From positions 1 to 64,000 of IMG/VR virus record IMGVR_UViG_3300043812_000016: 64,000 nt of DNA; one strand, written 5' to 3'. Below, piece after piece: positions 3,325 through 52,799 of this stretch (positions are counted from its first letter, which is position 1; each line of letters starts with the position of its first letter). Both the position numbers and the translations under genes were made by a program. Origin of the DNA: a virus (lineage: Duplodnaviria > Caudoviricetes). The notes beneath the pieces are model-generated. The model did not search any database, was not told the origin of the DNA, and was given only the letters and a program-made list of their open reading frames with translations.

Positions 3325-3618
3325 ATGACTAATGTAATTAGATTTGAACTTGTAAAAGTTGCCCCCCAGACTGAATTGGCAATCGAAAAGGGGGAGTATC
3401 GTATACGAAATAAATTTGGTGAAGTTGTTCCTGCTTGCAAATTAAGCATAGTTGTTAAAGATATGACTAAGGCAAAACTTATCTTACAAGGAAATGATAC
3501 TATTATCAATGGTAAAGGATTTTATATTAGTGGTGAAAATAAACTAACTTTAGATTGTTATAATAATAAACAAGTAGATAATTTAGTTAATTATTATCGA
3601 AAGGTATTTAGCTTATAA
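3325..3618 (+). CDS. early hypothetical protein
   Basis: own promoter and RBS. Confidence 0.8.
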   Translation: MTNVIRFELVKVAPQTELAIEKGEYRIRNKFGEVVPACKLSIVVKDMTKAKLILQGNDTIINGKGFYISGENKLTLDCYNNKQVDNLVNYYRKVFSL

Positions 3619-3727
3619 AAAAAAACTAAACTTAAACTCTTAATTATTTAGAAAAACTATTGACAATAATAACCAACAATGTTATTATTATAATGTAATA
3701 AGGAATTAAGAAAAGGAAGTTATCAAA

Positions 3728-21500: not shown

Positions 21501-21625
21501 GTGAACTACTCGGTCATGAATGACTAAGTTTCTGGGAACACAAGGTAGTATTTAGGATCTTACATCAGTATTCTGAATACCTAACTTACAGAACTTTGCT
21601 ATCTTACCACGGCTAGTCCCTAACC
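21501..21625 (-). ncRNA. stand-alone IS200/IS605 right-end / omega-RNA-like scaffold with its own promoter
   Basis: closely similar to 52652-52746; ends GTTCAC after hairpin; TTGACA(21662)-17-TATACT(21639) directly upstream. Confidence 0.6.
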
Positions 21626-21648
21626 ATAAGTATAGTATATAACATACA

Positions 21649-24600
21649 TTATTTATTGTCAACCTTTTTAAAATATTTATTTCTAATTTCCTCTAATTGC
21701 CGATCTCGTTGTTTAACAATCTCAGCTTTCTTATCGTTATCCTCTTCATTACTCAAATCAGTATTAGCCTTATCCTCAATGTACTTACATTCCATACTAA
21801 ATTGATAATACCTATCAATCCCCATAGCTTTGTAATCATCAAAGTCAAAGTCAAGATCATCACCATAAGTCTTGCCAAAAGCAATTTCACCAAACAATGG
21901 AAAACGGAATTGAGTATCATTAATCTTATACTTATCAGCAATTTTCAAAGTAGGGAAATCATTTATGTTAAGAATAAAATTTTGGATAGGTAAATGTTCC
22001 ATAATCTTCTTCGCCATTGCTGGGACAATATTAATTTCATCTGGGTGTACGTCTAATACGATCGAGTCATGCACCGTAATAGCAATACGAGACTTTAACC
22101 CATATTTACGTAACGTATTGCGAATGATAATTAGAGCAGTATTAGTACAATACGAACCACTTCCCTGAATCACTGCGTTAAAGGACTGACGTATAGCACG
22201 AGATTTTTTACCGTAGTCTAAATTTTGAGTAGCTTCAGGCAATCGTCTTACGTGTCCTGCAATCGTTTCTACATACCCCCGTTGTTCTACAAAATCTTCG
22301 GTAACTTCAATTGCCTTTTGCATTTGTGGCATAGCACTTAACACTTTATCATAAACTTGTTGAGCTTCTTCCAATGTCAATCCACGAGAATCTGAAAGTC
22401 CTTGTGGAGACTCGCCATATAGGAGTCCGAATGAAACCGCTTTAGCAAGGTATCTATGTTCGGAATCTACCTCATCAACAGGGATGTTAAAAGCTAAACT
22501 AGCATTACGTTTATGTATATCTGCACCATCCATTAAAGCCTGCATCATACCAATATCTTTAGAAACCAAAGATGATATAAAGATTTCTAGTGACTTATAA
22601 TCAATATTAAAAATATATCCACCCTTAAATCTTGACTTAAATAGTCCTTTAGCTGAATAGTTATAATTAGGATCATAAACGTCACTTGTAGGCTTTTTAA
22701 TATTCTGGGCATTAAAATTACTACTAGAGAGCCTAGAAGTTGAGGTTCCAGATGGGTGAAAAGTAGGATGTGACTTTCCTGTAGCATCAGCCAGCTTACT
22801 ATACCCCTCAATAGTAGAACTAATCATTTTCTTATCATTAGAATATGTTAGTAATAAATCTACTAAAGGAGCATGATAAGTCTTTTTAATATAAGGCAAA
22901 GCAGAATTACGATCAGTCTTATAATCTTTCCATGTAAGTTTTTCTGGGTGGCTTAACTTACGAGACTGAACAGCTTTTGGCTTTAAGTACTCTTTATCAG
23001 CAGGTAGCTTATAACCTAACATATGGTATAAAACATAGCCAATCTTTTCACTAGATCCAGGGTTAAACTTGTATTTAGGAATACCATTAGTATCTTCACC
23101 ACGTAGCTTACCATATTCCTTAAATTTCTCTTTCTGCTCTGGTGTCCGATCAGCAGGCTTGATAGCTTTAATCTGTTCCCGTTCTTGTAAAAGAGCTAGG
23201 TTATGATTTTCGTATTCTTGGATTTCGGGAGAAACCTCATACATCTTTTTAGTAACTTCTTCAATATCAGTAGTGAAGTGTTCTCTGTATTTCTCCATTT
23301 TATCCATATCCATTTGAAAACCAGTATGTTGCATATAAGCTAAAGTATCGCATAGTTGTGGGAAGAATTCATAGCAGAACTTAACCCACTTAGGACGAGA
23401 CTTAACCTTTTTATCAAAAATGTGATAAAGTTGGAGGGTAACATCAGTATCAGCAGAAGCGTACTTATAAATAGTTTCCATAGGCAACCACTCGAAATCT
23501 ACCTTACCACCGTCTACTTGGTTAGTAGGAGCTGTATACTGTGTCTTACTTGGCTTACGACTACGTTCGCCTTTTTCATACTTTTCCATTTCAGTAGAAT
23601 ACCAACGGTCATAATCATTCTTTAAGTATTGTTCAATAGCTTGGTCACGTTCGTCTTCATAACCGCCCATATCAGTATACTTATAAGCTAAGTGCTTTAA
23701 CCCACGTTGAGCGCCTTGGTTCTCATCCACTGTTTCATAATACATAAGCATAGTATCAACACAATTAGTAGCATACTCTAACCCGTAAATATCCATCATC
23801 ATATGAATATCATAGATACAATTATGTAATACTTTACGTTGCTCTTTCATCATTAATTCTTTAATCATATTAATGATATTATCGAACTGTTCTTTAGTCC
23901 ACAAATTAGGACTAAGACGATGATTAAGCGGAATCGAAACACCTTGATGTTCTTCCCAACTCATACTTACCATAATAGCTTTAGCACCTTTACGATAAGT
24001 TTCAAGAGTATTAGTTTCAAAGTCCAGTGCAATGATTGGGTACTTAGGTAAAACTTCATTGAAAATACGTTCTACCTCGTGATAATTAGTAACTAAACGA
24101 TACTTACCAAACTGAGGTTTAGTGTTCTCAATTCCACCTTTTAAAAACCGATTAACCATTCGATTACTAATAATCATCTTATCTCGTTCATAACTACCCA
24201 AGAAGAATTGTTGTTTAAGTGACGGGTTAAATACTAGGTAAGTAGTAAAGTCACTCTGGGGTAGCTTAAACGGAATTAATTCAAACATATCTTTAGGAAG
24301 TTTATATAAAGAAGTTAATTCATTCTTAAACCAACTTCCATAAGAAACAACAATATCGGGTTTAGTATCTAAGATATACTGCACCATCTCATCACGTTTC
24401 TTATGCAAGATACTAGCAGATGGCTTAACAACTGCATTAGTATACTTATTACGAGGGGGTACTTTATCAGTATAAAGAAACTTCAAGTCTACTGTTGTAT
24501 CTTTCGTATCTAAACCTGTTTTTGGGTGACCAATAACTTTATTAGAAAGAATTGAACCTACGACACTATGTAAAAAGTTTCCTTCGGCTTTCTTATTAAC

Positions 24601-29416: not shown

Positions 29417-30178
29417 CTACTTATTATGGTGGAACCAACTAATATCTTTATCAAAGAAAGCGATCATATCATTTGAAAGATACAATAGATAAGTTACAAA
29501 TAATACCCAGTTAGCATCACCTTGGAATGCTGTTACACCCCAAAGGATAACTGACATCACCCCTTGAATGGTCCAGCAGTAGTAAGATTCACTAAATCTT
29601 AGTGTGGTAAGTAAGGAGCCTGTAATACCAATAGTTGCCGCAATTGAGTCGATCCAAGGACGGGGACTAATAAACCAATGAGTATCAGAGTAATAAAGAA
29701 CAGCTAGTACTACTACAAAGAAAAGGATCGTAAGCACCCAGTTACGCAACCCTTTACCCTTTTCATGCAAGAATCGCACTTTCTTATCTACATCTTTAGC
29801 CCAACTAGGCATTAATAAGACGGGTAGATCTAAAGTAATAATATAAACAGTTTGAAGTAATACGTCATTAAAATTCTTGGCTTGAATAGCAACAAAAATA
29901 TAAATAAGTGCTGAAACTAAACCCAAAACCCCATTAAGTGGCTTAGCATTAGTAATTGAAAGAGTACAAGTAAACCCTAATACCCCAGCAAAAAGAGTAG
30001 CAATAGTAACAGCGTTAAACTGTCCCCCACCGATCGTCATCCCAACAATTAAGCCAAGCCCGAGAATTAATAAGAAATAAGAACGAGTTGACCACCCTTT
30101 CATCTGATCAACATACCAACTAGGCTTAAATACCGAATACCATGCAATCTTACTATCTGTGCTTACTGCATTATCCAC
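29417..30178 (-). CDS. pnuC: PnuC-family nicotinamide riboside/nucleoside transporter
   Basis: multiple TM helices, PWIDS...SYYCW motif. Confidence 0.85.
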   Translation of the reverse strand: MDNAVSTDSKIAWYSVFKPSWYVDQMKGWSTRSYFLLILGLGLIVGMTIGGGQFNAVTIATLFAGVLGFTCTLSITNAKPLNGVLGLVSALIYIFVAIQAKNFNDVLLQTVYIITLDLPVLLMPSWAKDVDKKVRFLHEKGKGLRNWVLTILFFVVVLAVLYYSDTHWFISPRPWIDSIAATIGITGSLLTTLRFSESYYCWTIQGVMSVILWGVTAFQGDANWVLFVTYLLYLSNDMIAFFDKDISWFHHNK

Positions 30179-30766: not shown

Positions 30767-31237
30767 TTAATAGACATCCCCCTCATAATAGTTAAAGGTT
30801 GGCTTATTAAAGTCAAACTTAGCTAATTCTGATTGTTTGATAAAGTTATGAGCAATCCCATAAGTCATTAGATTAATAGGCTTACCCCAGTCTTCGTCTG
30901 GAATAACAATCACAATGTATTTACCCAAGGCTTCCGCCATACCCAGTTCTACGCCAACTCCGACATCTTCTTCTTCTGGAATATAAGTAACCAAGCAAAC
31001 ATCAGATGTAGCAACGCCAACACAATCGCCCTTATAGGTTGCATTAGCCCATTCTTTATCTTTTAGTAGTTCTGGGTGTTCATCTACTCGTAATCCCTTA
31101 TATTGGTGCTGTAGCGGAATATAAGAGTTAGTAACGTCTACTGTTGGATTAGCCTTAATAGCTTCCATACTCTTGTCATAAGCTTCTTGTTGCTTGTCAC
31201 TAAACCATCCTGCACAAAAGTAAACTGTTTTTGCCAT
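30767..31237 (-). CDS. ndt: nucleoside 2-deoxyribosyltransferase
   Basis: VYFCAGWF, QHQY, EEDVGVGVELG, PINLM as in Lactobacillus NDT. Confidence 0.92.
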   Translation of the reverse strand: MAKTVYFCAGWFSDKQQEAYDKSMEAIKANPTVDVTNSYIPLQHQYKGLRVDEHPELLKDKEWANATYKGDCVGVATSDVCLVTYIPEEEDVGVGVELGMAEALGKYIVIVIPDEDWGKPINLMTYGIAHNFIKQSELAKFDFNKPTFNYYEGDVY

Positions 31238-31314
31238 GAAATAAAAACTCCTCTAATTATGATATGTATTAATTATACCATAATTAGAGGAAAACTAAAT
31301 ACATAATAAAGAAA

Positions 31315-31400
31315 TAGGGTAGGAAGGAATCGAACCTTCGTCTTGGGTTTAATTATTTAGCATAGCTATCCCAATCATTCTACCACTGAAGTATTACCCG
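31315..31400 (-). ncRNA. tRNA-like RNA with 22-nt expanded anticodon loop
   Basis: acceptor GGGTA/TACCC, D loop AGTGGTA, stem TTGGG/CCCAA, T arm GAAGG-TTCGATT-CCTTC. Confidence 0.7.
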
Positions 31401-31524
31401 ATCGACACTTATTTCCAGACAGTAGTGTTATAGTGCCCCACGAAAAGTGTCACTAAACTTCCAGCACTTCTAGCCCACATTGAACATACGCTTAGGTAAT
31501 TTTGTAAATGGTATGTGGGCTATA

Positions 31525-31603
31525 AGCAGGAATATCAGAATTGAACTGATGTTGGTGGAACGAGAAAACGCTCCGAGGTTCTACCAATTGAACTAATTCC
31601 TGC
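31525..31603 (-). ncRNA. tRNA-like RNA with non-canonical anticodon arm
   Basis: acceptor GCAGGAAT/ATTCCTGC, D arm GTTC/GAAC, T arm ATCAG-TTCAATT-CTGAT; anticodon arm GGAGCG-TTTTCT-CGTTCC. Confidence 0.7.
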
Positions 31604-31616
31604 ATAATAAGATCAA

Positions 31617-32358
31617 ATCTGAACATAGCTTTTAAGGAAAGCTGTACAACCTATTAAAATAAGCAACAACAAATTAAATCTAAAGTTACTAACAACGTCA
31701 AATTCAGTCTTGACTAAAACCCACAATGTAATTCATGACGGTTCGCTAACAGTTTTATATGACCAATCTAGTGGTTGTTGGCGCTGAACCACGTTGCTAC
31801 CCTTCTACCCGTGTGGGAGTCTCGCTTTTCTCATATTTACATGAACCATTGCGTAAATCATTGTAATCTATCAGCTTCTTATATCGTCCATAACGTCCCT
31901 CAACCCTTGCTCTGTGATTATTAAAGCCGAAGTGCTAGAAGTTGGTAAGTCCGCCAAAATCCCACTTTCTAAGCCCACACAGAGTAGACAATCGAAACGA
32001 CCACCACAGTCTCCAACGCTATGGAACAAATATTATCTAACAAACATCCAAGACCTTTTTAACGGTTGCGCTCGACCGCCCCTAGTGGGCATTCGCCGTC
32101 GCACACTGGAGTTGCTGTGAATTATCACTCGTACACATTCATATTCTCCTAGCTAAGAACGGGAATGGGATCAGACCCACCTACGTTGAAATGTTCTCCC
32201 TATACAGACAACCATGTTACCATAGCCCTCCGTATCACCTCAGGTTCAATTCGATAATTCTAAATCCCTTTTTCTTACGGTATCACGAACTGAAATCCCT
32301 TAAAATCATATTAGTCCCCAAAGCGGGACCTAGAGGCTTGCTCTATAGCTATTCAAAT
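31617..32358 (-). ncRNA. large (~740 nt) structured ncRNA, candidate ROOL/GOLLD-class
   Basis: GC-enriched, no credible ORF, terminal helix ATTTGAATAGCT / AGCTA(TG)TTCAGAT, GNRA hairpin, adjacent to tRNA-like genes. Confidence 0.6.
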
Positions 32359-32382
32359 ATCTAAAGTTCTAACTCACTAAAA

Positions 32383-32652
32383 TCAGAGGTTAATGTGAAG
32401 TCCCCTGCTTTCAAGAATATTGCCTAAACGACCAATATTCGTAAGTTCTTTATTATAATAGCATATCTTACCACCAGTAGCAAACATTTTATTAATTTCT
32501 GTAGTGGGGATAAATCCTTCTGGTAAATAACATTTAGTTTGGTCAACTGCTTTAAGCAAGTCTGGATGAGCTTGATAATCTTTAACACTAATCCCTTTTT
32601 GCACTGTTTCTAAAGACATCACAATCATTTGACTAACTAAGTCATCAATCAT
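32383..32652 (-). CDS. hypothetical protein (5' part frameshifted)
   Basis: ORF. Confidence 0.5.
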   Translation of the reverse strand: MIDDLVSQMIVMSLETVQKGISVKDYQAHPDLLKAVDQTKCYLPEGFIPTTEINKMFATGGKICYYNKELTNIGRLGNILESRGLHINL

Positions 32653-33143
32653 TAAGTATTGATCGGTAATTCCAGCAAAGCGATAAGTATGCTCAGTAAA
32701 ACCAAAGTCAAGCTCAGTTCGTCTGTCATTACGATAGATCTTATTTCTGTTTTTCCAACCGTTCCAACTGCTTATCAGAAATATCCCGGCAGTTAATTAC
32801 TAACATACCGGGATACTTAACTCCAATATCATAGAGAACTTGATAAACACGCTGACGATTGCTATTCAACCGTCTCTTCACCATCTTGTTCTTCTCCTTC
32901 TGGTTCCTTTTCTACTTCCAAGTTAGGTAGGTCTACGTCCAAGGTTAATTGAATTGTATAGTTTTCGTCATCGCTATTATCATAAGGACTTTGAACCACA
33001 GATTCTTCTGCAACTAAGGTAACCCTTCTTCTTGGTCAACAAGGGATTTAAGTTCTTCTAAGAACCACTTTTGGAAATCCTCTGGAGTAAGAGTCAGATA
33101 ATATTAGCAATAAATACCAAGAATTGTTAGTTCATTTCGTACT

Positions 33144-33383
33144 TCATAAAATCCTTAAGTGACTATCCACTCGTTTACTCTGAATCTTAGAATAAGTTAA
33201 CCGCAAATAACCAGTCTTAGTGTCCTTATCAATAAAACGTTCAAATTCAGGCTGTACATATCGCTTAGTGTGCATCGCTTTGAGATAGAAACGAAACGCC
33301 ATCGCCTTAACAAGAGCCTTAGTAGGCAATACAGCTTTTTTACCTTGGTATTCAGCAAAATATAAACCAGCTAAACTTTTCAT
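33144..33383 (-). CDS. hypothetical protein
   Basis: ORF with RBS. Confidence 0.55.
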   Translation of the reverse strand: MKSLAGLYFAEYQGKKAVLPTKALVKAMAFRFYLKAMHTKRYVQPEFERFIDKDTKTGYLRLTYSKIQSKRVDSHLRIL

Positions 33384-33536: not shown

Positions 33537-34010
33537 CTACTTTTCCTCCTCAAATTCTTGATACACGCCCATAGGATGTTTATTAGCAACGTAAGCCTCA
33601 GCAGAAGCAACAATTCCAGCTAGGATGTCATCTAAGAAAACATTACAGCTATTCTTACGTGCGTCTACCTTGCCAATAATTCCGGGCTTTACATGATCTA
33701 AATAGCCTAGATTTGAAATACCAATCCCACCGAAGATCTCAACACAACCATGCGATAAAGTTTCATCACATTGAAAAAGTCCCGAGTCTTCATTAAGAAT
33801 TTCAGCAAGATATTGATCTTCAATTCCTCGATCAGCCCACATATCAAGATTAATACCTAAAAGCAAAATATTTTGAATTTCACGCTTATTCAATACGTGG
33901 TAAACAGCGTCAATACATTCGTCTAATTCAATATCTGGGTTATGCTCTTTTTGTCCTGCATACACAAGTCCACCCAAAGACTCTACAGGTACATTACGTT
34001 TATCCAACAA
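33537..34010 (-). CDS. pgpA: phosphatidylglycerophosphatase A family (YutG-like)
   Basis: LNKREIQN, LFQCDETL, NLGYLDHVKPGII, FLDDILAGIVASA. Confidence 0.85.
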   Translation of the reverse strand: MLDKRNVPVESLGGLVYAGQKEHNPDIELDECIDAVYHVLNKREIQNILLLGINLDMWADRGIEDQYLAEILNEDSGLFQCDETLSHGCVEIFGGIGISNLGYLDHVKPGIIGKVDARKNSCNVFLDDILAGIVASAEAYVANKHPMGVYQEFEEEK

Positions 34011-52530: not shown

Positions 52531-52799
52531 GAAAACACGTTACTTTAGTTGCGTGATGAATCAATTAGTGGTATAATAAAAACTGTAAAGAATTTAGGTA
52601 ATTTTAGATACGAAAACCAAGTATCTTAATAAGTTACTTAATAATATTAAAGGTTAGGGACTAGCCTTGGTAAGATAGCTTAGTTCTGTAAGTTAGGTAT
52701 AGTGAATACTGATGTAAGATCCTAAATACTACTAGGTGTTCCCAGAATCTCCCACTTCAAGTGTTAAACATAAGGTTTAGCTAAGTGGGAGAAGTTCAA
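52531..52799 (+). mobile_element. non-autonomous IS200/IS605 derivative (MITE/PATE-like)
   Basis: follows TTGA; left hairpin cacgttactttagttgcgtg; omega-RNA-like scaffold from 52652; right end tctcccactt...aagtgggagaagTTCAA. Confidence 0.7.

What the first reader, a model, noticed from the sequence alone, without database searches (positions are those of the whole stretch)
31617..32358. ~740-nt ornate non-coding RNA candidate
Seen: a GC-enriched island with no credible ORF on the transcribed strand; ends pair (AUUUGAAUAGCU with AGCUA-ug-UUCAGAU); internal helices (CACAG..CUCCA/UGGAG.CUGUG, UAAUUCA/UGAAUUA, a GUAA-capped hairpin); a near-identical 15/16-mer atctaaagtt(a)ctaac at 31678 and 32359. 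Established: ROOL and GOLLD large RNAs occur next to tRNAs in Lactobacillales phages and have unknown function. I cannot assign the family from memory; it may be new.
Basis: partly seen in the sequence, partly recalled or inferred. Interest (0 to 1): 0.7.

Follow-up and report, generated by a model that had tools for sequence, protein, structure and literature searches.

The report
New large structured phage RNA gene
About 770 bases of a Lactobacillus-type phage encode no protein but a large, intricately folded RNA that matches no catalogued RNA family and sits directly in front of transfer-RNA genes, like the few other giant phage RNAs, whose function is also unknown.

Summary
The finding holds. 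Window 31603-32375 (minus strand) is a gene for a ~770-nt structured non-coding RNA. It is GC-enriched (41-47% against 33.5%) and has no conserved reading frame on either strand. Eleven distinct natural copies (90-96% identical, from pig and poultry-type gut metagenomes) keep 98.7% of 249 predicted pairs. Fourteen pairs show compensatory double changes, and in one copy a whole helix is swapped.

No Rfam 15 family matches. The ROOL, GOLLD and intron models are silent, although the ROOL model does find ROOL in Lactobacillaceae. My own covariance models find nothing in 156 Lactobacillaceae genomes, related phages, phage K lncRNA loci or T5 RNAX.

The RNA is swappable cargo. Near-identical phages carry TnpB or a second deoxyribosyltransferase in the same slot. 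In some relatives it has its own perfect sigma-70 promoter. In one copy it ends 2 nt before a true tRNA-His; here it ends 1 nt before a degenerate tRNA-like. A strong terminator follows.

Best reading: a new family of the GOLLD/ROOL/T5-RNAX kind, released at its 3' end by RNase P. Expression and function are not shown. This scan earlier noted similar unclassified tRNA-adjacent phage RNAs on other DNA (T5 RNAX).

The parts
31603..32375 (-). Large structured non-coding RNA (~770 nt). The 5' limit is approximate, at or just after the stop codon of the upstream gene. The 3' limit is set by the start of the tRNA-like gene at 31602.
   Evidence: Alignment of 11 distinct copies. Consensus fold of 249 pairs, 98.7% of cells paired, 14 pairs with changes on both sides against 7.2+-1.8 in shuffles (0/500) and 1-4 in slid controls. 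No Rfam family.
32141..32360 (-). Domain 1 (~220 nt), closed by helices 32340-32360 / 32141-32160. It contains the GNRA hairpin.
   Evidence: The closing helices show only wobble-compatible one-sided changes and no double changes.
32202..32235 (-). 14-bp hairpin capped by a GNRA tetraloop (GUAA, or GUGA in relatives).
   Evidence: helix 9.
31643..32135 (-). Domain 2 (~490 nt), closed by UGUAC/GUACA (32131-32135 with 31643-31647). It has three sub-domains.
   Evidence: The closing helix is invariant, so it is untested by covariation.
32039..32116 (-). Best-supported sub-domain: helix 15 (32106-32116 / 32039-32052), helix 16 (32095-32103 / 32067-32076), helix 17 and a small hairpin.
   Evidence: Helix 16 has compensatory changes at 6 of 8 pairs, with three sequence states including a whole-helix swap in L022. 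The natural 1-nt indels fall on the predicted bulges of helix 15.
31910..31984 (-). Helix 22 (31978-31984 / 31910-31916) enclosing the long irregular hairpin, helix 23.
   Evidence: Two adjacent pairs switch U-A/C-G to C-G/U-A in several copies.
31722..31853 (-). 3' sub-domain (helices 27-33). Includes the CCC-ACAC-GGG hairpin at 31808-31817 and the unpaired purine-rich strands GAGAAAAGCGAGA and UAGAAGGGUAGC.
   Evidence: Double changes in helices 27, 30 and 32. Model R1 was built on this part.
31628..31642 (-). Small 3' hairpin (GCUUU / AAAGC) before the tRNA-like gene.
   Evidence: invariant.
31526..31602 (-). tRNA-like gene 1. It is a cloverleaf with a 6-bp anticodon stem and a 6-nt loop, so it cannot decode. 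It starts 1 nt after the RNA.
   Evidence: Rfam tRNA 39.6 bits. ARAGORN does not call it. Fold z = -4.57. In L022 a true tRNA-His (GTG) occupies this place, 2 nt after the RNA.
31401..31525 (-). Spacer with two hairpins between the two tRNA-like genes.
   Evidence: z = -1.43; weak.
31315..31400 (-). tRNA-like gene 2, with an oversized anticodon region.
   Evidence: Rfam tRNA 31 bits. Not called by ARAGORN. L022 has tRNA-Asp in the corresponding region.
31249..31292 (-). Intrinsic terminator: an 18-bp hairpin followed by a U-run. Its 3' arm holds the AGAGGAG ribosome-binding site of the next gene.
   Evidence: -20.9 kcal/mol, z = -5.66. Sequence read.
32455..32483 (-). Promoter-like site inside the upstream gene (TTGCTA, 17 nt, TG-n-TATTAT). 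A possible start for the RNA in this phage.
   Evidence: 9 of 12, extended -10. Consensus match only; it lies in coding sequence.
32383..32884 (-). Upstream 173-aa gene of unknown function, frameshifted in this record (47-aa and 89-aa ORFs). Its stop codon marks the left edge of the variable slot.
31855..32364 (+). Antisense open frame, 169 aa in some relatives and broken here. It is not a gene.
   Evidence: Substitutions fall 32:21:33 on codon positions. The frame is broken in 6 of 11 distinct copies, and 1-nt indels occur. No Pfam or PHROG match. Exhaustive phmmer finds only near-identical copies.

Best explanation
Window 31603-32375 (minus strand) is the gene of a ~770-nt, two-domain, highly base-paired non-coding RNA. 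It belongs to no described family. It is accessory cargo of a clade of ~140-kb myophages, probably of Limosilactobacillus.

SHOWN. The fold is under selection. No reading frame is conserved. The RNA occupies a swappable slot between a 173-aa gene and tRNA or tRNA-like genes. In some relatives it has its own perfect sigma-70 promoter, placed after a terminator.

INFERRED. The RNA is transcribed together with the downstream tRNA(-like) genes as a non-coding operon that ends at the terminator at 31249-31292. RNase P cutting at the 5' end of the adjoining tRNA(-like) releases its 3' end. The folded RNA then acts in trans during infection, as GOLLD, ROOL and T5 RNAX are thought to.

MOST LIKELY ROLE (speculative). 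A self-contained RNA scaffold that assembles with itself or sequesters a host component such as ribosomes, tRNAs or a defence protein. It is dispensable for basic phage growth.
For: STRUCTURE. Eleven distinct copies at 90-96% identity. In the consensus fold, 98.7% of cells are paired, against 34-48% when partners are slid. Fourteen pairs have changes on both sides, against 7.2+-1.8 in shuffles (0/500) and 1-4 in slid controls. Helix 16 covaries at 6 of 8 pairs.

STRAND. 18% of pairs are G-U, so they hold only on the minus strand. MFE is -209 against -149 kcal/mol. Flanking genes and tRNA-likes lie on the same strand.

NOT CODING..

NOT A KNOWN FAMILY. Searches, with a positive control.

OWN TRANSCRIPTION UNIT. 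In L019 a terminator (6179-6156) is followed by a 12/12 promoter with extended -10 (6058-6031), a leader, and then the RNA.

tRNA JUNCTION. L022 has a true tRNA-His 2 nt after the RNA, then tRNA-Asp. The window has a stable cloverleaf at the same place.

TERMINATOR..

ACCESSORY NATURE. Close relatives carry TnpB or a second deoxyribosyltransferase in the slot, and their complete genomes lack the RNA.

PRECEDENTS WITH THE SAME LAYOUT. T5 RNAX: promoter, a 719-nt stable RNA, and tRNA-Arg abutting it. Phage K lnc002: abundant, upstream of three tRNAs. GOLLD and ROOL near tRNA islands in phages.
Against:
- All known copies are at least 90% identical and come from one phage clade. Covariation therefore rests on few events, and many helices never vary. 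Related sequences can beat shuffles without structure, although the slid controls argue against that here.
- The single-sequence z-score is only -1.37.
- The window's own copy lacks the dedicated promoter and leader.
- The RNA is absent from close relatives, so any function is conditional.
- Nothing bears directly on oligomerisation or on a binding partner.
Confidence: 0.72

Rival explanations
1. It is not a stand-alone RNA but a long structured 5' leader or spacer of the tRNA precursor. It would act in cis, guiding or timing the processing of the downstream tRNA(-like) genes or protecting the precursor, and would be degraded after processing.
For: It abuts the tRNA(-like) gene within 1-2 nt. 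The unit appears to share one promoter and one terminator.
Against: RNA-less relatives (L009, L010, L002) keep the same tRNA-like or tRNA-His genes without it, so they do not need it. A ~770-nt fold kept by compensatory change is far more than a spacer requires. T5 RNAX, with the same layout, is annotated as a stable RNA.
Confidence: 0.1
2. It is a highly diverged member of ROOL or GOLLD that the Rfam models are too narrow to recognise.
For: Same host group (Lactobacillales phages), same tRNA-adjacent setting, similar size. ROOL has few strictly conserved nucleotides.
Against: No ROOL or GOLLD hit at E<=10 in the region or the whole phage. The ROOL model scores 110-220 bits on Lactobacillaceae genomes. 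My models R1 and R2 do not hit those ROOL loci.
Confidence: 0.06
3. It is an ORF-less self-splicing intron, another ribozyme-bearing mobile element, or a decayed remnant of one. That would explain the variable slot and the 15/16-nt direct repeat.
For: The slot is a hotspot that holds a TnpB element in a relative. A direct repeat is present. Herelleviridae-type phages often carry group I introns (my own knowledge).
Against: No group I or II, HEARO or other ribozyme model hits at E<=10. The upstream ORF ends at the same stop codon in RNA-less relatives, so no exon is interrupted. The 3' repeat copy is not conserved. tblastn finds no similarity to TnpB or the alternative cargo. Ongoing compensatory evolution argues against a dead remnant.
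Confidence: 0.05
4. The plus strand encodes a real 169-aa protein, and the apparent RNA structure is incidental.
For: An open 169-173-aa frame is called in several metagenomic copies.
Against: Substitutions fall 32:21:33 on codon positions. The frame is broken in 6 of 11 distinct copies, and natural 1-nt indels occur. No Pfam or PHROG hit. Nothing but near-identical copies among 1.84 billion representatives. It lies antisense to every neighbouring gene.
Confidence: 0.03

Closest known systems
ROOL RNA (Rfam RF03087; Weinberg et al. 2017, PMC5737381; cryo-EM preprint 10.1101/2024.12.08.627333)
   Same: A large (~580-660 nt), multi-domain, protein-free RNA. It is encoded in phages and prophages of Lactobacillales and others, often beside tRNA genes. 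It is non-essential and its function is unknown.
   Different: No detectable sequence or structure similarity: the ROOL model is silent here, and my models are silent on real ROOL loci. This RNA is longer (~770 nt) and known only from one phage clade. Cage formation has not been tested.
GOLLD RNA (Rfam RF02032)
   Same: A giant (>800 nt) ornate RNA of phages and prophages, including Lactobacillales. It lies near, or is even interleaved with, tRNAs, and is expressed during lysis.
   Different: The GOLLD model gives nothing in the region. GOLLD's conserved 3' domain was not recognised.
Phage T5 RNAX (rnaX, T5s08, NC_005859 40848-41566)
   Same: Identical gene syntax: promoter, a ~720-nt non-coding 'stable RNA with unknown functions', then a tRNA gene abutting its 3' end.
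   Different: Different phage family (Demerecviridae, E. coli). No sequence match and no hit with R1 or R2.
Kayvirus (phage K) lnc001 / lnc002 (PMC9241854)
   Same: Abundant 0.6-1.2-kb non-coding transcripts of a large Gram-positive myophage. They lie on the same strand as, and next to, tRNA genes; lnc002 lies directly upstream of tRNA-Asp/Phe/Trp. They are not in Rfam.
   Different: No sequence or model similarity. No structure has been published for them. Expression is shown for them but not for this RNA.
tRNA-like 3'-end processing modules (MALAT1-mascRNA type; my own knowledge)
   Same: A long non-coding RNA whose 3' end would be made by RNase P cutting at an adjoining tRNA-like fold. The tRNA-like itself need not decode.
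   Different: That system is eukaryotic. Here the cut is only inferred from the 1-2 nt junction.

Membership tests
ROOL (RF03087) | Match to the family covariance model at or near its gathering score (99.1 bits) | tested here: not met
   No match at E<=10 in 31200-32600 or in the whole 143-kb phage. The same model scores 110-220 bits in 3 of 151 Lactobacillaceae genomes.
ROOL (RF03087) | Setting: phage or prophage, near tRNA genes, no associated protein | tested here: met
   Phage record. tRNA-like genes lie 1 nt downstream, and a true tRNA-His follows in L022.
ROOL (RF03087) | Octameric RNA-only cage | not testable with these tools
   Needs cryo-EM, SEC-MALS or mass photometry.
GOLLD (RF02032) | Match to the family covariance model (conserved 3' region; gathering score 150 bits) | tested here: not met
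   No match in the region. The only hit in the phage is 4.4 bits at 95130-95156.
Group I / group II introns | Catalytic core recognised by Rfam models (RF00028, RF00029, the D1-D4 models) and an interrupted host gene | tested here: not met
   No hits at E<=10. The upstream ORF ends at the same stop in RNA-less relatives. The downstream neighbour is a tRNA-like gene, not an exon.
T5 RNAX | Homology in sequence or structure to rnaX | tested here: not met
   blastn against GenBank phages finds nothing. R1 and R2 find nothing in T5 28000-50000. These models come from near-identical sequences, so very remote homology cannot be excluded.
T5 RNAX | Layout: promoter, ~0.7-kb stable RNA, abutting tRNA | tested here: met
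   T5; this family.
Structured non-coding RNA gene (generic) | Compensatory base-pair changes above controls, and absence of coding signal | tested here: met
Structured non-coding RNA gene (generic) | A discrete stable transcript | not tested
TnpB/IscB guide RNAs (omega RNA, HEARO RF02033) | Adjacent TnpB or IscB gene, and a match to the RNA model | tested here: not met
   No TnpB in the window and no HEARO hit. TnpB occurs only as the alternative cargo in L002.

The most novel reading that the evidence does not exclude
This is a further, independent class of giant phage RNA that, like ROOL and GOLLD, folds without protein and assembles into a symmetric RNA-only particle. It would be made from a dedicated non-coding operon, with tRNA-like folds serving as its processing signals. 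That would indicate that tRNA-linked giant RNAs are a recurrent, convergently evolved phage device.
Probability: 0.15. Interest if true: 0.85.

Novelty: new variant of a known kind. Interest (0 to 1): 0.62.

Why it matters
Bacterial and phage RNAs longer than 500 nt with elaborate conserved folds are very few: rRNA, group II introns, RNase P, OLE, GOLLD, ROOL, raiA. The phage-borne ones have lately been shown to form RNA-only cages of unknown purpose.

A new, unrelated ~770-nt RNA with the same gene syntax (own promoter, large RNA, abutting tRNA, terminator) adds a case to a pattern that also includes T5 RNAX and the phage K lncRNAs. It suggests that a giant RNA fused to a tRNA processing site is a general phage device.

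This case comes with natural controls. Near-identical phages carry other cargo in the same slot, and some copies have a dedicated promoter while others do not. The RNA's contribution could therefore be tested directly by competition or host-range assays. It is also a compact candidate for cryo-EM.

Tried and rejected
No expression evidence and no read laying.
- blastn of the region against GenBank phages at E<=10 gave only chance 20-40-nt matches.
- Exact-pattern scans of IMG/VR and of JGI metagenomes returned only near-identical copies (L007, L031) and chance hits. L026/27/29 share the two 10-mers but nothing else. L028, L030, L032 and L065 have no R2 hit.
- Models R1 and R2 found nothing beyond the family itself in: the rest of the phage, 5 + 151 Lactobacillaceae genomes, four related complete phages, ROOL loci, phage K loci and other loci, and T5. 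Both models were built from sequences at least 90% identical (effective number 0.77), so their reach is short. These blanks do not show absence.
- Searching with the spurious antisense ORF as a protein was what found the relatives. The exhaustive profile search added nothing more distant.
- Pseudogene of the alternative cargo (TnpB, second deoxyribosyltransferase): no tblastn or blastn-short similarity.
- CUAG-containing hairpin loops as kissing loops: the variable loop positions do not covary (read). Dropped.
- The 15/16-nt direct repeat as a target-site duplication or operator: the 3' copy is not conserved. Dropped.
- My first accession guess for GOLLD (RF01998) was wrong; that is a group II D1-D4 model. 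The correct accession is RF02032.

Full report
SETTING. The window is the first 64 kb of a 143,482-bp IMG/VR virus record. Around the finding, all genes run on the minus strand and are typical auxiliary genes of large Lactobacillus-type myophages: a nucleoside deoxyribosyltransferase (30767-31237), PnuC (29417-30178) and PgpA (33537-34010). The deoxyribosyltransferase is 75-78% identical to genes of Limosilactobacillus species, which is the best clue to the host. Between its start (31237) and the end of the upstream 173-aa gene (about 32383) lie about 1.15 kb without a credible gene.

THE OBSERVATION. The stretch is GC-enriched: 41% overall, with 200-nt windows up to 47.5%. The window is 33.5% and the flanks 35-36%. 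The longest sense-strand ORF is 52 aa. Single-sequence folding is only weakly better than shuffles on the minus strand (-209 kcal/mol, z = -1.37) and no better on the plus strand (-148.8, z = -0.03).

KNOWN FAMILIES.
- cmscan against all 4,227 Rfam 15 models finds nothing in the region at gathering thresholds.
- With relaxed filters and E<=10 it finds nothing either, except two odd tRNA-like genes downstream (31526-31602 and 31315-31400) and noise.
- The ROOL model finds nothing in the whole phage. GOLLD gives only a 4-bit noise hit elsewhere, and a group II model gives nothing.
- As a positive control, the ROOL model scores 110-220 bits in 3 of 151 Lactobacillaceae genomes.
- blastn against 50,697 GenBank phage records gives no real match.

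FINDING RELATIVES. Loci fetched through the flanking proteins showed one IMG/VR contig with the RNA at about 96% identity (L006/L008). Several close relatives lack it. Gene callers often predict spurious ORFs over non-coding RNA, so I searched with the antisense ORF of L006 as a protein. I then fetched the contigs behind the hits and their cluster members. With one metagenome pattern hit (L031), this gave 11 distinct copies at 90-96% identity, from ENA and Logan assemblies. Their record names (MUNK18, GAIO21) suggest pig and poultry gut studies; that reading of the names is my inference.

COVARIATION. On the 13-row alignment A3, the RNAalifold consensus has 249 pairs.
- 98.7% of cells are standard pairs, against 34-48% when the 3' partners are slid by 1-3 columns.
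- Fourteen pairs (30 cells) carry a change on both sides. Shuffles give 7.2+-1.8 (0 of 500 reach 14), and slid controls give 1-4.
- Helix 16 (32095-32103 / 32067-32076) changes at 6 of 8 pairs and exists in three states. L022 replaces almost the whole helix yet still pairs.
- Helix 22 (31978-31984 / 31910-31916) flips two adjacent pairs in several copies. I first saw this in the two-sequence comparison.
- Helices 23, 25, 27, 30 and 32 each show double changes.
- The GNRA loop of the 32202-32235 hairpin stays GNRA.
- The natural 1-nt indels fall on predicted bulges of helix 15.
- 18% of pairs are G-U, so the fold exists only on the minus strand.

CAVEATS. The copies are close kin, many helices never vary, and the number of independent events is small. 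The domain-closing helices and any pseudoknots are untested.

His terminal helix is contradicted: two of its pairs vary only to mismatches. His two internal helices remain pairable but lack compensatory change, and they compete with supported helices. The direct repeat is real, but its 3' copy is not conserved.

CODING RIVALS.
- The plus-strand frame reaches 169-173 aa in some copies. Its substitutions fall 32:21:33 on codon positions. It is broken in 6 of 11 distinct copies, including by 1-nt indels.
- It has no Pfam or PHROG match. Among 1.84 billion representatives it has only near-identical relatives.
- The 52-aa sense ORF shows 7:11:9, mostly residue-changing substitutions, and an unconserved stop.
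- tblastn with the alternative cargo proteins finds nothing.

GENE SYNTAX. The slot between the stop codon of the 173-aa gene and tRNA-like gene 1 is variable.
- L002, whose neighbouring deoxyribosyltransferase is 97% identical, carries a 389-aa TnpB (OrfB_IS605 / Cas12f TNB domains).
- L009 and L010 carry a second deoxyribosyltransferase.
- The complete genomes of four relatives lack the RNA anywhere.
- In L016-L021 the upstream gene ends in an intrinsic terminator. It is followed by a 12/12 sigma-70 promoter with an extended -10, a ~160-nt leader, a 62-85-nt relic of the gene's end, and then the RNA. There the RNA heads its own, entirely non-coding transcription unit.
- In the window the RNA directly follows the gene. 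A 9/12 promoter-like site lies inside that gene.
- Downstream, L022 has a true tRNA-His starting 2 nt after the RNA, then tRNA-Asp. The window has a stable cloverleaf that cannot decode (z = -4.57) 1 nt after the RNA, a spacer, a second tRNA-like gene, and an 18-bp terminator hairpin (z = -5.66).
- From this I infer co-transcription, and release of the RNA's 3' end by RNase P.

COMPARISON WITH WHAT IS KNOWN. The literature describes GOLLD and ROOL as large ornate RNAs of phages and prophages near tRNA islands. Their function is unknown, and both form RNA-only cages. Phage K makes two abundant lncRNAs next to its tRNA genes, and these also have no Rfam family. T5's annotated RNAX is a 719-nt stable RNA of unknown function, with a promoter in front and tRNA-Arg abutting its 3' end. 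The present RNA shares this syntax. It shares no detectable sequence or model similarity with any of them. I therefore file it as a new family of a known kind, not as a member of ROOL, GOLLD or RNAX.

VERDICT. This is a real, new, narrowly distributed, accessory large structured RNA of a gut Lactobacillaceae phage clade. Its existence as a selected fold is well supported (about 0.85). The operon and RNase P model is plausible. The scaffold or sequestration function is a guess by analogy. Expression and function remain to be shown.

Noticed in passing
window 52639-52799 (+) and 21527-21665 (-); L019:5866-6022 (-); L016:3190-3355 (-): A conserved ~130-160-nt element is dispersed in the phage genome at 80-85% identity. 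It starts GG(C/U)UAGGGACUAGCC and includes UGGUAAGAUAGCUUAGUUCUGUAAGUUAGG. In L019, L016 and window ~21.7 kb it lies right behind a strong sigma-70 promoter; in L016-L021 it precedes the large RNA. No Rfam family matches. It could be a promoter-proximal leader (put/nut-like antitermination signal) or a small RNA.
   Followed up: partly
L002:1509-2678 (+): In a very close relative, the slot that holds the RNA here carries a 389-aa TnpB (Pfam OrfB_IS605, Cas12f1-like TNB, HTH_OrfB_IS605). About 600 nt of GC-richer non-coding DNA with two short tRNA-like hits follows it. This could include its guide RNA.
   Followed up: partly
window 31526-31602 (-) and 31315-31400 (-); L022:4576-4648 and 3610-3685 (-): The two tRNA-like genes behind the RNA cannot decode: one has a 6-nt anticodon loop and the other an oversized anticodon region. 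ARAGORN misses both. In L022 the same places hold true tRNA-His and tRNA-Asp, and L010 has tRNA-His. The cloverleaf of the first is kept (z = -4.57), as if it were retained as a processing signal or decoy.
   Followed up: partly
window 32383-32884 and 32862-33383 (-): Two neighbouring 173-aa genes are split by frameshifts in this record (47+89 aa and 79+45 aa). They are intact in L006, while L006 in turn truncates the deoxyribosyltransferase. This points to indel errors in these assemblies or to recent pseudogenes, so single-base indels in the RNA of the window and L006 deserve caution.
   Followed up: partly
window 31249-31292 (-): The terminator hairpin of the non-coding unit contains, in its 3' arm, the AGAGGAG ribosome-binding site of the deoxyribosyltransferase gene (ATG at 31237). 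Terminator formation would therefore also mask that gene's translation start.
   Followed up: no
L004 / L044: IMG/VR contig 2843020057_000001 and GenBank LN906635.1 have the same length (138,515 bp), and the match lies at coinciding coordinates in both. LN906635.1 is titled 'Lactobacillus reuteri plasmid p53608_1'. Both carry a 75%-identical deoxyribosyltransferase, so this 'plasmid' may be a related phage-like replicon. It lacks the RNA.
   Followed up: no
L012, L013 (phage K 13595-14229 and 37679-38832): The published abundant lncRNAs of phage K have no Rfam family. A near-threshold DUF3800-I hit (43.4 against 44.2 bits) lies at the 3' part of lnc001.
   Followed up: no
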